Source: Naegleria gruberi
Taxonomy: Eukaryota
Reading direction: 5' to 3' (one strand)
NCBI GenBank assembly: GCA_000004985.1
Contig: GG738856.1
DNA length: 64,000 nucleotides
The position numbers and the translations under genes are program-made. This document shows positions 14,146-16,769 of this stretch, in pieces. A model generated the notes under the pieces. The model did no database searches. It worked only from the letters and a program-made list of their open reading frames with translations, and had not been told where the DNA came from. The stretch's first letter is position 1. Each line of letters opens with the position of its first letter.

Positions 14146-14742
14146 ATGCCATCAATGGATGATTTAGTTTTTAATCTTAAATTTACAAGCAAACAATTCC
14201 AAAGAGCTTCTAAAAAAGCTGAAAAGGAAGAAAAGAAGGAAAAGGACAAGGTTAAACAAGCTATGGAAAAGGGTAATCTTGAAGGTGCTCGTATTCACGC
14301 TCAAACAGCCATCAGAAAAAAGAATGAAACTATTAACTTTTTGAGACTTTCATCAAGAATTGATGCAGTTGCTAGTAGAATGGATACAGCCATCAAGATG
14401 AATAGGGTGACATCAACTATGGGTGGTATTGTTAAGGGAATGGATAAAGTTCTCGGAGCAATGGATGCTAGTAAAATTGGAGCAATTTTGGATAAATTTG
14501 AACAACAATTTGAAGATTTGGATGTTACTAGTCAATACATGGAAAGTTCAATGCAACAAACAACAAGTTTGTCAACACCTGAAGATGAAGTCAATCAACT
14601 CATGGCCGAAGTTGCTGATGAAAATGGTTTGAATGTTTCTGAAAAATTGGGAGCAGTCAAAACCAAGAAGGATGATATCCAAAGTGTTCAAGTTGATGAA
14701 TTATCGGAAAGATTATCCAAACTCAAATCCCAAAAATTGTAA
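14146..14742 (+). CDS. CHMP1: ESCRT-III subunit CHMP1 (Did2/Vps46 homolog)
   Basis: 'DDLVFNLKFTSKQFQRASKKAEKEEKKEKDKVKQAMEKGNLEGARIHAQTAIRKKNETINFLRLSSRIDAVASRMDTA...LDKFEQQFEDLDV...DELSERLSKLK' aligns along its length with CHMP1 ([76 protein letters not shown]). Confidence 0.85.
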   Translation: MPSMDDLVFNLKFTSKQFQRASKKAEKEEKKEKDKVKQAMEKGNLEGARIHAQTAIRKKNETINFLRLSSRIDAVASRMDTAIKMNRVTSTMGGIVKGMDKVLGAMDASKIGAILDKFEQQFEDLDVTSQYMESSMQQTTSLSTPEDEVNQLMAEVADENGLNVSEKLGAVKTKKDDIQSVQVDELSERLSKLKSQKL

Positions 14743-14837: not shown

Positions 14838-15180
14838 ATGGTCAAGATCCATATTGAATATTGTACTGCGTGAGGTTTGTATTTTACGTAACAAAATTAA
14901 CCGACAAATATTAATTTCTTTATCAATACATTTAATAATAATAATAATATCAATAGGATATGCCTCCAAATTTAGAAATGCTAAATTGTTTATTGAAAAG
15001 AATATTGAAGGTGCCACTGTAGAAGGTAATACAAAGTCCAAGCCTAGAGCTGGAGCTTTTGAAATTACTGACGAGAGTGGTAACTGCTATTACTCCAAGT
15101 TGCAAACTGGTACTCATATTACCAATGAACAACTTGAAGAAGTAGTCAAGGCCATTAAAAAGTCAATGGAAGACAAGTAA
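14838..15180 (+). CDS. SelW-like (Rdx family) selenoprotein with an in-frame UGA Sec codon. Exon 1 is 14838-14874, intron 14875-14956, exon 2 14957-15180.
   Basis: Exon 1 'ATG GTC AAG ATC CAT ATT GAA TAT TGT ACT GCG TGA G' gives MVKIHIEYCTA-U. GTTTGT...AATAG intron (82 nt) joins in phase to exon 2 '(G)YASKFRNAKLFIEKNIEGATVEGNTKSKPRAGAFEITDESGNCYYSKLQTGTHITNEQLEEVVKAIKKSMEDK'. The whole protein aligns with SelW ([28 protein letters not shown]...GTPQATGFFEV...GKL[IV]HSKK...). Exon 2 has no in-frame ATG of its own. Confidence 0.7.
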
Positions 15181-15330
15181 TCTTGTTTTCTTGATTGACT
15201 TTTTGGATCAAGACAATTGTACATTTCGCCGCTATTCTCTCAATGATCCTAACAATGTGTGTTGAGAATTTAGTGGAGTAGTGTAGATATGTTCTTGATC
15301 TGTAGGGCCAAACAGGTTAGATTGTGAGCA

Positions 15331-15382
15331 AGTAATGAAAATGTTGACCTGGTGAGTGACAACTCTGCAACCTTGAATTACT
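15331..15382 (+). promoter_or_regulatory. Candidate SECIS element in the 3' UTR of the SelW-like gene
   Basis: AGTA-ATGA-...-TTGA-ATTACT: the flanking AGTAAT/ATTACT can form helix I around an AUGA...UGA quartet candidate. Helix II and the apical loop could not be folded convincingly by eye. Confidence 0.25.
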
Positions 15383-15677
15383 GGAGTCTGCATCCTTCTA
15401 ATAGATCAACTCTGGGGGGTTCTTTGTTTGAGAAATCAGGCAACATTCTTCTGCGTTTCCTCTCAATCAACCTGCAATAATATTATGTGAAATATATTCA
15501 ACACTAGTAAATTTTTCTTTCACATAAATTGTTGTGATTTATCTTTTTTTCAATGAAATTCAATAAGAAGAAACACTGTTTCATACATTTTCATATCCCT
15601 TCCAACATTTTACCTATTAACATATTAACATTTAATTCAATTTAATAAGAATTTAATATTTAATTTGATATAAAAAA

Positions 15678-16769
15678 ATGCAAAAACGTGAAACCCTCAC
15701 TTCCTTACCTCCAGAGCTTTTCTTCTCCATCCTATCCTACCTCGATAATTGGCAGGAAAAGATACAATTCTGCACCCAATTTACTCGTGCCAAGGAGAGA
15801 AATTGGAGAGAAACATTGAGGGGAATGATTTATGAGAAGAAAACTCATGAATTGGATTTTATTGTTAATGTTTTGCCTCAAAAATTGTTTGTACAGAGGA
15901 GTCGTTGGAATGTCAAAAAAGAACAACCAATGCCTTACTTTGCAAAATTGGTGGACTTGTTGAAATTTGTCAAGAGTAAAAGAAGACATGACATTATGTT
16001 CACAAAAAAGTATGGTAATAGGAAATATAGCTTATTGGGATCTGTTTTGATTTCTTTCAAAAAATACACCAAAAAGGATAACGTTGAGGAGGTCAATGAA
16101 ATTCTCCTTCCTTTTATTAATTACTATTTAGAGGAGGGATTTGAATATTATGGAAATTATTCATTCATAACAAACGAGTCTAATTTTGTAGCCCTACTAA
16201 CTATGGTTGAGTTAGGTTGTTTGGATACTGTTACTGATATTCTTACCAACAAGATTGGTGAATTCAAATTTAATGATAGAAATGCTCAATCATTACTTGT
16301 CAGATTTATGAAATCCCTAGTTCCTCTCGAGGTTTTGAAGAAATGCCTTATTGAAACAAGAATAATAACAGCCTCATTGTTGGTTTCACCTAAAGAACTC
16401 TATCGAAACAGATACATTTCTCATTGCATAGTTTTTATTAATGCAAAGATGGATTACACAAACTGGGAATATTTCAAAAATCTCATTGATCTCATTTCAG
16501 ATCTAATTCTAGAGGCATGCACTAAGGAAGAGTTGGAAAATAATAATCATAGAACTAACATGTTACAATTATTTGGAAAGAAAACGAAAACAGCAGATTC
16601 TAGTTTCGAGTATTCTTCAATTGATTTTCTTGCTGAAACAATAACAAAATCGGAAAAACCAACTTCAAATAAGATGAAGTTTTTATATCATGTGGAGAAT
16701 AGAGTTCGAGTTTCCATTGTACCTCGTTATAAGAATTTAGCTGAATATTATGCAAAGAGATGGATCTAA
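15678..16769 (+). CDS. F-box-like hypothetical protein (363 aa)
   Basis: N-terminal 'LPPELFFSILSYLDNWQEKIQFC' has the F-box pattern; the rest is unrecognised. Confidence 0.45.
   Translation: MQKRETLTSLPPELFFSILSYLDNWQEKIQFCTQFTRAKERNWRETLRGMIYEKKTHELDFIVNVLPQKLFVQRSRWNVKKEQPMPYFAKLVDLLKFVKSKRRHDIMFTKKYGNRKYSLLGSVLISFKKYTKKDNVEEVNEILLPFINYYLEEGFEYYGNYSFITNESNFVALLTMVELGCLDTVTDILTNKIGEFKFNDRNAQSLLVRFMKSLVPLEVLKKCLIETRIITASLLVSPKELYRNRYISHCIVFINAKMDYTNWEYFKNLIDLISDLILEACTKEELENNNHRTNMLQLFGKKTKTADSSFEYSSIDFLAETITKSEKPTSNKMKFLYHVENRVRVSIVPRYKNLAEYYAKRWI

What the first reader, a model, noticed from the sequence alone, without database searches (positions are those of the whole stretch)
14838..15400. 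SelW-like selenoprotein gene with an in-frame UGA (C-T-A-U motif) that the ORF track misses
The 37-nt first exon (ATG at 14838) encodes MVKIHIEYCTA, then TGA at 14871-14873. A GTTTGT...TAG intron (14875-14956) follows. Its removal fuses in phase to the ORF body 'GYASKFRNAKLFIEKNIEGATVEGNTKSKPRAGAFEITDESGNCYYSKLQTGTHITNEQLEEVVKAIKKSMEDK'.

The joined protein aligns with selenoprotein W position by position: Y-C-x-x-U-G-Y; ...G-T-x-x-TG-FEV; ...G-LVHSK; ...IK. The redox CxxU site sits exactly at the TGA. The downstream exon has no start codon of its own, so the TGA must be read through. The simplest explanation is selenocysteine.

A SECIS-like AUGA...UGA motif bracketed by complementary AGTAAT/ATTACT lies about 150 nt past the stop (15331-15382). 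This implies a complete Sec-incorporation machinery in this organism, and a stop-to-stop ORF track will systematically miss such genes.
Basis: partly seen in the sequence, partly recalled or inferred. Interest (0 to 1): 0.8.

Follow-up and report, generated by a model that had tools for sequence, protein, structure and literature searches.

The report
Unannotated SelW-like selenoprotein gene, Naegleria

Summary
The window is Naegleria gruberi. Exon 1 (14838-14874) plus exon 2 (14957-15180) encode an 86-aa Rdx/SelW-like protein (Pfam Rdx E=2.9e-10; TIGR02174 48.9 bits) with a CTAU motif and TGA at 14871-73. Three intronless relatives from metagenomes read straight across the proposed splice junction and keep the TGA. 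Substitutions on both sides of it are mostly synonymous. Every relative inspected carries TGA at this site: 7 other eukaryote-type loci and 36 bacterial loci. N. gruberi is already known to have the Sec machinery. The likely SECIS is a longer hairpin at 15348-15440 with an invariant GUGAC/UGA core, a conserved unpaired UUGAAU, and covarying helices (11 of 31 pairs changed on both sides, 92.5% of cells paired, 0 of 500 shuffles as good). It deviates from the consensus in three ways: GUGA, AA 16 nt from the core, and a long helix III. Rfam does not detect it. Verdict: a new member of a known kind with an atypical SECIS. Sec incorporation and splicing are inferred, not shown.

The parts
14838..14874 (+). 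Exon 1 (coding part): ATG, MVKIHIEYCTA, Sec codon, and the first base of Gly13
   Evidence: It is covered by the Pfam Rdx and TIGR02174 matches. It is collinear with the intronless orthologs L001 478-511, L038 31-64 and L039 516-561.
14862..14873 (+). CxxU redox motif: TGT ACT GCG TGA (C9-T-A-U12). The Sec codon TGA is at 14871-14873.
   Evidence: It aligns to the CxxC/CxxU motif of mouse SelW and MIEN1. TGA is found at this column in L001, L038, L039, L040/L041, L042 and L043, and in 36 of 36 marine bacterial relatives.
14875..14956 (+). Intron, 82 nt, GT...AG (GTTTGT...ATAG), phase 1 inside the Gly13 codon
   Evidence: It is 17% GC against 36-38% in the exons, and there is an in-frame stop 5 codons after the TGA if it is not removed. 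It is absent at the same place in L001, L038 and L039. It is not a repeat within the window. Splicing itself is inferred; no transcript data were available.
14957..15180 (+). Exon 2 coding part: (G)GYASKFRN...SMEDK, with stop TAA at 15178-15180
   Evidence: It is 79-80% identical at protein level to P0001/L001 and 75% to P0123/L038. Codon-position identities of 84/90/57% against L001 show purifying selection.
15348..15440 (+). Proposed SECIS element (whole hairpin), 176 nt after the stop codon and about 400 nt after the UGA in the spliced mRNA
   Evidence: It is 80% identical to L001, while the UTR flanks are 47-53%. The structure was scored on three species: 92.5% of cells paired, 11 of 31 pairs changed on both sides, 0 of 500 shuffles as good, and slid controls gave 25-56% paired. 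It is the only hit of my SECIS descriptor in each of the three 3'UTRs, at homologous positions.
15348..15353 (+). Helix I, 5' strand (CCUGGU). It pairs with 15434 and 15436-15440; A15435 is bulged.
   Evidence: 5 of 6 pairs change on both sides among the three species.
15356..15360 (+). SECIS core, 5' strand: G-UGA-C. Proposed non-Watson-Crick pairs are U15357.G15432, G15358.A15431, A15359.G15430 and C15360.U15429.
   Evidence: It is invariant in all three species (5/5). It fits the published core consensus UGAN/KGAW (PMC3753652). The GUGA type is documented in Ostreococcus, Chlamydomonas and sponge. The sheared G.A pairs are inferred.
15361..15374 (+). Helix II, 5' strand (13 rungs, with C15368 bulged). 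It pairs with 15416-15428.
   Evidence: 5 of 13 pairs change on both sides. The lower helix is only 2/10 and 2/9 identical between the window and L038 yet stays paired. The bulge sits at the same column in all three.
15375..15380 (+). Unpaired 5' bulge GAAUUA, which carries the conserved AA (15376-77) of the UUGAAU motif
   Evidence: UUGAAU is invariant in all three species. It lies on the 5' strand between helix II and helix III, as in type II SECIS elements. There are 16 nt between GUGA and AA, which is longer than usual.
15381..15415 (+). Helix III (15381-94 with 15404-15) and apical loop (15395-15403)
   Evidence: 12 pairs, 100% paired, and 9 of them invariant. The only length change in the whole element is a 2-nt indel in the apical loop. 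The upper part is 82-96% identical among species.
15429..15432 (+). SECIS core, 3' strand: U-GA-G (UGAA in L038)
   Evidence: U-G-A is invariant (3/3). The neighbouring second GA (15432-33) and the 5' GA (15354-55) are not conserved in L038, and that fixes the register of the tandem G.A pairs.
15331..15382 (+). It is not part of the feature as such.
   Evidence: In L001 the bracket pairs only 3 of 6 positions, the ATGA is displaced by 5 nt, and there is no conserved inner helix.

Best explanation
Window 14838-15440 (+ strand) is a previously unannotated Naegleria gruberi gene for an 86-residue, roughly 9.7-kDa SelW-like (Rdx family) protein with a thioredoxin-like fold. Its redox motif is Cys9-Thr-Ala-Sec12. 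The primary transcript loses an 82-nt intron that splits the Gly codon immediately after the Sec codon. During translation the UGA at 14871-73 is decoded as selenocysteine by the eukaryotic recoding pathway. In that pathway a SECIS hairpin in the 3'UTR (15348-15440) presents a kink-turn core, GUGAC on the 5' strand against UGAG on the 3' strand, with tandem sheared G.A pairs. A SECIS-binding protein (SBP2-type) recognises the core and recruits the Sec-specific elongation factor with Sec-tRNA(Sec). All of these factors have been described for N. gruberi. The mature protein most likely cycles between a selenol/thiol form and a Cys9-Sec12 selenenylsulfide, acting as a small thiol-dependent oxidoreductase as proposed for SelW. 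Shown here: the gene structure by comparison with relatives, family membership, conservation of the TGA, purifying selection on both sides of it, and a conserved covarying 3'UTR hairpin with a SECIS-type core. Inferred: the splicing event itself, actual Sec insertion, the sheared G.A geometry, SBP2 binding, and the redox function.
For: Organism: the neighbouring ORF is identical to N. gruberi XP_002679659.1. Family: Pfam Rdx E=2.9e-10, full length; TIGR02174 CXXU_selWTH 48.9 bits against a cutoff of 34.2. The closest solved sequences are MIEN1 and mouse SelW, with the CxxC/U motifs aligned. A model of the exon-2 part (pLDDT 75) has mouse SelW as its best fold match (TM 0.62, probability 0.91). 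Splice junction: the intronless orthologs L001, L038 and L039 read ...EYCTA-TGA-GGN-TAY... without interruption. Selection: against L001 there are 42 identical codons, 29 that differ only synonymously and 15 non-synonymous; codon-position identities are 84/90/57%, and 79/88/37% against L038. TGA conservation: all eukaryote-type relatives fetched (L001, L038, L039, L040/41, L042, L043) and 36 of 36 bacterial relatives carry it, while the flanking synonymous sites vary. The bacterial relatives have their own covarying in-frame SECIS hairpin. Other eukaryote-type relatives have canonical 3'UTR SECIS elements: L039 folds into GUGA type II without constraints; L040 has AUGA type I with 10 of 10 rungs; L043 is hit by Rfam SECIS_1 at 26.7 bits. 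SECIS in the window: the block is 80% identical to L001 against 47-53% in the flanks. On three species 92.5% of cells are paired and 11 of 31 pairs change on both sides; 0 of 500 shuffles match this and slid controls give 25-56% paired. The core GUGAC/UGA and the UUGAAU motif are invariant. It is the single descriptor hit at homologous positions in all three UTRs. The element stays 3' of the CDS even though the gene is inverted relative to its CHMP1 neighbour in L001. Precedents for GUGA cores and long mini-stems come from PMC3473315 and PMC2375036. The Sec machinery in N. gruberi is reported in PMC4561486, which cites da Silva 2013.
Against: There is no transcript, 75Se-labelling or mass-spectrometry evidence, so splicing and Sec insertion are inferred. 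Rfam's SECIS models give no hit even at E<=10 on a 126-nt stretch. The control shows that Rfam also misses two of three canonical-looking SECIS elements of relatives, so this negative carries little weight. The element departs from the SECIS consensus. Its 3' core is UGAG in N. gruberi and L001, where the consensus has A or U at the last position. There are 16 nt between the core and the AA, against roughly 11-14 in the usual search patterns (that range is from my own knowledge). The internal loop is small, and helix III is 12 bp. The minimum-free-energy fold of each single sequence is not exceptional (z = -0.1 to -0.7) and differs from the consensus structure. My descriptor is loose, giving about 10 chance hits per 128 kb. 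The covariation rests on only three sequences. The fold match to SelW is not statistically significant (E=0.12), and the model lacks the first strand.
Confidence: 0.88

Rival explanations
1. The gene is real and Sec-encoding, but the conserved hairpin 15348-15440 is a different 3'UTR element (a stability, localisation or regulatory structure). The true SECIS would then lie elsewhere or be too divergent to see.
For: Rfam gives no SECIS hit. The AA spacing and helix III length are atypical. The upper part is conserved at sequence level (82-96%) far beyond what a SECIS is known to need. The single-sequence fold is not exceptional.
Against: It is the only conserved block in the 3'UTR. It carries an invariant RUGA...GA core placed exactly between two covarying helices. 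No other SECIS-like candidate exists in any of the three UTRs. A Sec-decoding eukaryotic mRNA must carry a SECIS somewhere in its 3'UTR.
Confidence: 0.08
2. One reading: AGUAAU bracket, AUGA at 15335, UGA at 15374) is the SECIS.
For: The motifs and a perfect 6-bp bracket exist in N. gruberi, and AUGA is the commonest core sequence.
Against: In L001 the bracket pairs only 3 of 6 positions. The AUGA lies 14 nt rather than 19 nt from the conserved block. The stretch between AUGA and UGA folds at only -1.7 kcal/mol. In L038 the sequence upstream of the core shares no similarity with it. There are no unpaired A's at the right distance.
Confidence: 0.02
3. The TGA is a genuine stop: the locus is a pseudogene or a fortuitous ORF, or exon 1 does not belong to the gene.
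For: The gene is absent from the N. gruberi annotation. TGA is used as a stop by at least one long ORF in the window.
Against: The TGA and the coding frame on both sides are conserved in three Naegleria-type species, with mostly synonymous change, and in every more distant relative inspected. Exon 1 is needed for the full-length Rdx match.
Confidence: 0.01
4. The UGA is read through as a standard amino acid (Cys, Trp or Arg by near-cognate tRNA, or a reassigned code) rather than as Sec.
For: Database translations of relatives show W at this site. TGA is rare as a stop in this genome: TAA 19, TGA 1, TAG 1 among long ORFs.
Against: The W's are artefacts of translation under genetic code 4; P0018 also reads through its own terminal TGA. 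The site is the redox-active Cys/Sec column of the Rdx family. Long ORFs in the window are delimited under the standard code. The Sec machinery and a SECIS-type element are both present.
Confidence: 0.02

Closest known systems
Eukaryotic selenoprotein W (SELENOW; mouse SelW structure PDB 2npb) and the Cys-containing paralogs Rdx12 and MIEN1 (PDB 2ljk)
   Same: It has the same Pfam/TIGRFAM family (Rdx, CXXU_selWTH). It is a single-domain protein of about 85-90 residues with a CxxU motif near the N-terminus at the same alignment column. It shares G-x-FE(V/I) and (Y/H)SK motifs. Sec is encoded by UGA together with a 3'UTR SECIS.
   Different: Similarity is only 19-24 bits to mouse SelW and 23 bits to MIEN1, so orthology to vertebrate SELENOW was not established. 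The motif is CTAU rather than CGAU. A characteristic VEGNxKxKPRxGAFE(I/V)T segment is shared instead with a set of protist-like and bacterial sequences.
Bacterial 'SelW-like' CxxU selenoproteins, the most abundant selenoprotein family in the Sargasso Sea survey (Zhang, Fomenko and Gladyshev 2005, PMC1088965)
   Same: They are 32-45% identical, with the same N-terminal KIHIEYCxxU-x-Y, EGN, PRxGAFE and YSK motifs and the same length. TGA is at the same codon in 36 of 36 loci.
   Different: The bacterial genes carry the recoding signal inside the ORF: a 6-bp hairpin with a 5-nt G-containing loop, 18 nt after the UGA, with covariation. The Naegleria-type mRNAs have no conserved hairpin there and instead have a 3'UTR element. 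The N. gruberi gene has a spliceosomal intron. phmmer ranks eukaryote-type relatives (54-152 bits) above bacterial ones (34-47 bits), so a recent transfer from bacteria is not indicated.
GUGA-type and long-mini-stem type II SECIS elements of Ostreococcus, Chlamydomonas, sponge and Dictyostelium (PMC2375036, PMC3473315)
   Same: A G precedes the UGA of the core. The unpaired A's sit in a 5' bulge between helix II and an additional helix III (type II). An 'extremely long mini-stem' is described for the Dictyostelium deiodinase-like gene and for many Ostreococcus SECIS elements. Mismatches occur just after the core.
   Different: There are 16 nt between the core and the AA, with 13 rungs plus a bulge in helix II. 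The canonical elements of the relatives L039 and L043 have 12-13 nt. The 3' core reads UGAG in two of three species. Helix III is 12 bp, and the upper 49 nt are nearly invariant across species. Rfam SECIS_1 does not detect it.

Membership tests
Rdx family (SelW/SelT/SelH; Pfam PF10262, NCBIfam TIGR02174) | Profile match above the curated cutoff over the whole domain | tested here: met
   Pfam Rdx scores 40.6 bits against a cutoff of 22.6, covering profile positions 1-73 of 74. TIGR02174 scores 48.9 bits against a cutoff of 34.2, also covering 1-73 of 74.
Rdx family (SelW/SelT/SelH; Pfam PF10262, NCBIfam TIGR02174) | CxxC/CxxU redox motif near the N-terminus, at the family's conserved column | tested here: met
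   C9-T-A-U12 aligns with the CxxC of MIEN1 and with the SGAC of the SelW chain in 2npb (Cys10Ser/Sec13Cys in that construct, from my own knowledge). C9 and U12 are invariant in the 19-sequence family alignment.
Rdx family (SelW/SelT/SelH; Pfam PF10262, NCBIfam TIGR02174) | Thioredoxin-like beta-alpha-beta-beta-beta-alpha fold | tested here: inconclusive
   Only the exon-2 part could be submitted. The model (pLDDT 75) shows alpha1, two strands and alpha2. The best PDB match is mouse SelW (TM 0.62, probability 0.91), but E=0.12. This is consistent with the fold but not significant.
Selenoprotein W proper (orthology to vertebrate SELENOW) | Closer to SelW than to other Rdx subfamilies, and single-domain with no signal peptide, transmembrane segment or extension | tested here: inconclusive
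   It is single-domain, 86 aa, with no extension. However, MIEN1 (23.1 bits) and SelW (19.2 bits) are not discriminated. The closest relatives are unnamed protist-like and bacterial 'SelW-like' sequences. I therefore call it SelW-like, not SELENOW.
Eukaryotic selenoprotein gene | In-frame UGA at a position that is Sec or Cys in homologs, with the coding frame conserved downstream | tested here: met
Eukaryotic selenoprotein gene | The Sec codon is conserved in orthologs of close relatives (it is not a private nonsense mutation) | tested here: met
   L001 (80% aa identity), L038 (75%) and L039 (54%) all carry TGA.
Eukaryotic SECIS element | Core quartet UGAN/KGAW with tandem G.A/A.G pairs, preceded by A or G | tested here: met
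   The 5' strand is G-UGAC. The 3' strand is UGAG in N. gruberi and L001, and UGAA in L038. Both are invariant and flanked directly by covarying helices. The last position is G rather than A or U in two of three species. The non-Watson-Crick geometry is inferred. The consensus is taken from PMC3753652.
Eukaryotic SECIS element | Helix I and helix II flanking the core | tested here: met
   In helix I, 5 of 6 pairs change on both sides. In helix II, 5 of 13 do. Overall 92.5% of cells are paired, against 25-56% when the partners are slid.
Eukaryotic SECIS element | [quoted passage not shown] | tested here: inconclusive
   A conserved unpaired AA is present in the invariant UUGAAU, in the type II position. 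However, 16 nt separate GUGA from AA. The classical search patterns use about 11-14 nt (from my own knowledge), and the relatives L039 and L043 have 12-13 nt.
Eukaryotic SECIS element | Recognition by a curated covariance model (Rfam SECIS_1, RF00031) | tested here: not met
   There is no hit at E<=10 on 1 kb or on 126 nt. In the control, the model finds only 1 of 3 canonical-looking SECIS elements of relatives, and that one falls below its gathering score. SECISearch3 could not be run.
Eukaryotic SECIS element | Location in the 3'UTR at a sufficient distance from the UGA | tested here: met
   It lies 176, 158 and 66 nt after the stop codon, and 400, 385 and 281 nt after the UGA, in the three species.
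Eukaryotic selenoprotein gene | Sec machinery (tRNA-Sec, SPS2, PSTK, SepSecS, eEFSec, SBP2) in the genome | not testable with these tools
The literature reports SPS2 and the machinery in N. gruberi (PMC4561486, which cites da Silva et al. 2013).
Eukaryotic selenoprotein gene | Selenium actually incorporated at the UGA | not testable with these tools
   This needs 75Se labelling or mass spectrometry.
Bacterial SelW-like selenoprotein genes | SECIS hairpin inside the ORF immediately 3' of the UGA | tested here: not met
   The hairpin is present with covariation in the marine relatives. There is no conserved hairpin in the three Naegleria-type mRNAs: -2 kcal/mol, with broken pairs.

The most novel reading that the evidence does not exclude
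The Naegleria lineage uses a distinct, extended SECIS architecture: a GUGA core, a 13-rung helix II that puts the AA 16 nt from the core, and a roughly 49-nt upper module (UUGAAU plus a 12-bp helix III plus the apex). The upper module is almost sequence-invariant between species whose synonymous sites are near saturation. That would point to a lineage-specific recognition determinant, for example an extra protein contact or a signature shared by all Naegleria SECIS elements. It would also mean that standard SECIS models under-detect heterolobosean selenoproteins, so the published N. gruberi selenoproteome is an underestimate.
Probability: 0.3. Interest if true: 0.55.

Novelty: new member of a known kind. 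Interest (0 to 1): 0.35.

Why it matters
The finding adds a concrete, well-supported selenoprotein gene to Naegleria gruberi. To my knowledge only a thioredoxin-reductase-like selenoprotein and the Sec machinery have been reported for this organism, and this gene is missing from its protein annotation. The case illustrates two systematic blind spots. Gene callers either truncate Sec genes or, in metagenomes, translate the UGA as Trp under genetic code 4. Curated SECIS models miss protist elements. The three-species alignment also gives a testable structural model of a heterolobosean SECIS. That model could be used to search N. gruberi and the pathogen N. fowleri for further selenoproteins. None of this changes current understanding of Sec decoding.

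Tried and rejected
1. Rfam scans of the locus at gathering and permissive thresholds gave no SECIS hit. The control on relatives shows low sensitivity, so this negative carries little weight.

2. Single-sequence thermodynamics did not help. The fold z-scores of both candidate hairpins are unremarkable.

4. I considered other ATGA sites in the UTR (15243, 15553). Read by eye, the first has ATGA inside a hairpin loop and the second forms a plain Watson-Crick hairpin. Neither passes the descriptor.

5. I considered an alternative register for the tandem G.A pairs (G15432/A15433, or the 5' G15354/A15355). I rejected it because those bases are not conserved in L038.

6. I considered recent transfer from marine bacteria, because the first relatives found were all bacterial. 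I rejected it as the preferred reading after the exhaustive HMMER search found closer eukaryote-type relatives with introns and 3'UTR SECIS elements.

7. I looked for a relic of the bacterial in-frame SECIS, or a Sec-redefinition hairpin, just after the UGA. The N. gruberi mRNA alone shows a hairpin there, but it is not conserved.

8. I checked whether the intron is a repeat or an introner. It has no other copy in the window.

Only the exon-2 part could be modelled.

10. Searches for further Naegleria-type orthologs, such as N. fowleri, found none beyond L001 and L038.

11. The da Silva 2013 paper and the SECISearch3 supplement could not be read.
Full report
**1. The observation**

- ATG is at 14838. 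The reading is MVKIHIEYCTA, then TGA at 14871-73, then a single G.
- An 82-nt GTTTGT...ATAG interval follows (14875-14956). It is 17% GC, against 36-38% in the flanking coding sequence.
- Removing it gives a 261-nt reading frame in phase that ends at TAA 15178-80.
- If it is left in, the frame stops five codons after the TGA.
- The mechanical ORF list shows only a 108-aa TTG ORF that runs through the intron in another frame. An ORF track does therefore miss the gene.

**2. Organism and context**

The next ORF downstream (15678-16766) is identical to Naegleria gruberi XP_002679659.1 / NAEGRDRAFT_64891, which lies on a 602-kb scaffold. A Snf7-family CHMP1-like gene lies upstream and an FGGY kinase gene downstream. 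The window holds no tRNA gene.

A search of 5.8 billion predicted proteins with the reconstructed protein returned no N. gruberi entry. The gene is therefore absent from the deposited annotation. No paper in the searchable library mentions Naegleria together with SelW.

**3. The protein**

With Sec written as Cys, the 86-aa product matches two curated family models end to end.
- Pfam Rdx: E=2.9e-10, 40.6 bits against a cutoff of 22.6, covering profile positions 1-73 of 74.
- NCBIfam TIGR02174 'SelT/SelW/SelH': 48.9 bits against a cutoff of 34.2.

Both matches include the exon-1 residues. The nearest solved structures by sequence are MIEN1 (2ljk) and mouse SelW (2npb), with the CxxC/CxxU motifs in register.

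Only the exon-2 part could be submitted for structure prediction. The model (pLDDT 75) has alpha1, two strands and alpha2. Its best PDB fold match is mouse SelW (TM 0.62, probability 0.91, E=0.12), which is consistent but not significant. The calculated mass with Sec is 9.68 kDa.

**4. Comparative test of the gene model**

This was the decisive step. Three relatives were recovered from metagenome contigs.
- L001 (ENA ERZ4903137): 80% aa identity. Its CHMP1 neighbour is 95.8% identical over 71 aa, so it comes from another Naegleria.
- L038 (JGI 3300002220): 75% identity.
- L039 (JGI 3300030540): 54% identity. It is transcript-like, with an AATAAA signal and a poly-A run.

All three are intronless here.

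Divergence is dominated by synonymous change on both sides of the TGA.

| Comparison | Identical codons | Synonymous-only | Non-synonymous | Identity at codon positions 1/2/3 |
|---|---|---|---|---|
| N. gruberi vs L001 | 42 | 29 | 15 | 84 / 90 / 57% |
| N. gruberi vs L038 | not counted | 35 | 20 | 79 / 88 / 37% |

A pseudogene or a fortuitous ORF is excluded.

**5. The wider family**

One metagenome scan returned 36 marine loci that are 32-45% identical.
- All 36 carry TGA at the same codon, while neighbouring synonymous positions vary.
- They sit in gene-dense contigs next to an HflK-type gene.
- They carry a hairpin 18 nt after the UGA whose closing pair occurs as C-G (6), U-A (5) and A-U (5). 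This is a bacterial in-frame SECIS.

They correspond to the bacterial 'SelW-like' family of the Sargasso Sea survey (PMC1088965). Database copies of these proteins show W at the Sec site, which is an artefact of translation under genetic code 4.

An exhaustive HMMER search then found closer, eukaryote-type relatives.
- L040/L041: IEYCIA-TGA-SY.
- L042: KIHVEYCTS-TGA-GY, followed by a GTTTGT...TAG intron four codons further along.
- L043: VEYCNS-TGA-GY, with two GTAAGT...CAG introns.

phmmer ranks the groups as follows. The mouse sequence was typed and from memory.

| Group | Score against the N. gruberi protein (bits) |
|---|---|
| Naegleria-type orthologs (L001, L038) | 152, 123 |
| Other eukaryote-type relatives | 54-85 |
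| Marine bacterial SelW-like | 34-47 |
| Mouse SelW | about 24 |

The gene therefore belongs to a eukaryotic SelW-like clade. A recent bacterial origin need not be invoked.

**6. The SECIS**

Its ATGA lies 14 nt rather than 19 nt from the conserved block. The inner stretch folds at only -1.7 kcal/mol.

*Conservation points elsewhere.* Against L001, the 3'UTR is 47-53% identical except for one block at 15348-15440, which is 80% identical. RNAalifold folds that block into one long hairpin.

*The third species supplies the covariation.* Its helix I and lower helix II sequences are almost entirely different (2/10 and 2/9 identical) yet remain complementary. The core GUGAC (5/5), the 3' UGA (3/3) and the UUGAAU motif are invariant.

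*Formal scoring of my explicit structure on the three sequences:*

| Measure | Observed | Controls |
|---|---|---|
| Cells forming a standard pair | 92.5% | 25-56% when 3' partners are slid by 1-3 columns |
| Pairs changed on both sides and still paired | 11 of 31 | mean 4.3 in shuffles, 0 of 500 reach 11; 0-4 in slid controls |

*Anatomy in window coordinates:*
- Helix I: 15348-53 with 15434 and 15436-40.
- Internal loop: a small loop between helix I and the core.
- Core: G-U15357 G A C on the 5' strand against U15429 G A G on the 3' strand.
- Helix II: 13 rungs, with C15368 bulged.
- Bulge: an unpaired GAAUUA carrying the conserved AA.
- Helix III: 12 bp.
- Apical loop: 9 nt. It holds the only indel in the whole element.

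*The register of the tandem G.A pairs is fixed by L038.* The neighbouring GA dinucleotides on both strands are not conserved there.

*Descriptor test.* My loose SECIS descriptor gives about 10 chance hits per 128 kb. It returns exactly one hit in each of the three 3'UTRs, at homologous positions.

*Linkage to the gene.* The element stays 3' of the CDS even though the gene is inverted relative to CHMP1 between N. gruberi and L001.

*Relatives have canonical 3'UTR SECIS elements.*
- L039 folds without constraints into a GUGA type II SECIS, with AA 13 nt after GUGA.
- L040 has an AUGA type I element with 10 of 10 helix-II rungs.
- L043 is hit by Rfam SECIS_1 over the full model at 26.7 bits.

**7. 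Caveats on the SECIS**

- Rfam gives no hit on the Naegleria element. It also misses the L039 and L040 elements.
- The 3' core ends in G in two of three species.
- The AA lies 16 nt from the core.
- Helix III is long.
- Single-sequence folding is unremarkable.
- GUGA cores and very long mini-stems do have published precedent (PMC3473315, PMC2375036).
- I could not run SECISearch3.

**8. Mechanism**

- Shown: the gene structure by comparison, family membership, a conserved TGA under purifying selection, and a covarying 3'UTR hairpin with a SECIS-type core.
- Established elsewhere: the Sec machinery in N. gruberi (PMC4561486, which cites da Silva 2013).
- Inferred: removal of the intron, SBP2/eEFSec-dependent insertion of Sec at UGA 14871-73, and a Cys9-Sec12 selenenylsulfide redox cycle like that proposed for SelW.

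**9. Unexplained**

The upper 49 nt of the hairpin are 82-96% identical among species whose third codon positions are only 37-57% identical. That is more sequence constraint than a SECIS is known to require.

**10. Verdict**

The finding is a new, unannotated member of a known family in an organism already known to use Sec, with an atypical SECIS variant. Interest is moderate to low, at 0.35.

Noticed in passing
window 14146-14742 (+); L001 1113-1328 (-): The upstream Snf7-family CHMP1/Did2-like gene has a 95.8% identical ortholog in L001. There it lies downstream of the SelW-like gene on the opposite strand. The SelW-like gene together with its 3'UTR element is therefore inverted relative to CHMP1 between the two Naegleria genomes.
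   Followed up: partly
window 14875-14956; L042 about 2455-2523; L043 57-105 and 216-257: The intron just after the Sec codon is specific to N. gruberi. It is absent in L001, L038 and L039. L042 has an intron with the same GTTTGT...TAG ends four codons further along. L043 has two GTAAGT...CAG introns at other positions. Intron positions in this small gene therefore differ between lineages.
   Followed up: partly
window 15371-15419 (A6 columns 28-76): The upper part of the SECIS hairpin (UUGAAU, helix III, apex) is nearly sequence-invariant: 40/49, 42/49 and 47/49 in the three pairwise comparisons. Synonymous sites of the same genes are only 37-57% identical. This is more constraint than base pairing or known SECIS requirements explain.
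   Followed up: partly
L002-L037 (e.g. L003 1696-1740): Marine bacterial SelW-like genes carry an in-frame SECIS hairpin, UUUGAN-CGUGU-NUCAAA, 18 nt after the UGA. The third base of the Asp/Glu codon covaries with the third base of the Val codon (C-G 6, U-A 5, A-U 5).
   Followed up: yes
proteins P0003-P0122, P0124, P0144: Hundreds of database entries for this family show Trp at the Sec position, and some read through their true terminal TGA (P0018). The metagenome gene callers translated these short contigs under genetic code 4. This is a systematic mis-annotation of UGA-Sec genes.
   Followed up: yes
L039 1-1013: The contig is a head-to-head palindrome of one transcript. It holds two inverted copies of the gene, an AATAAA signal and a poly-A/T run. 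This is probably an assembly chimera, and it produces spurious Rfam miRNA hits at 392-558.
   Followed up: partly
L039 845-888; L040 689-739; L043 422-487: Rfam SECIS_1 detects only one of three canonical-looking SECIS elements of protist-like relatives, and that one (26.7 bits) falls below its gathering score of 35. The model has poor sensitivity outside metazoa.
   Followed up: yes
window, all long ORFs: Of 21 ATG-initiated ORFs of at least 250 aa, 19 end in TAA, one in TGA and one in TAG. N. gruberi shows a strong preference for TAA as stop codon in this region.
   Followed up: no
window + strand 6043, 9171, 13164, 17332, 35947 and others; - strand 53748, 31168 and others: My loose SECIS descriptor hits 24 places in the real window, against about 10 +/- 3 in shuffles. 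I did not check whether any of the other hits lies downstream of another TGA-interrupted gene.
   Followed up: no
spliced mRNA, 16-34 nt after the UGA (window 14969-14987): The N. gruberi mRNA can form a 7-bp hairpin, AAUUUAG-AAAUG-CUAAAUU, at the position homologous to the bacterial in-frame SECIS. It is not conserved in L001 or L038, so it is probably chance.
   Followed up: yes
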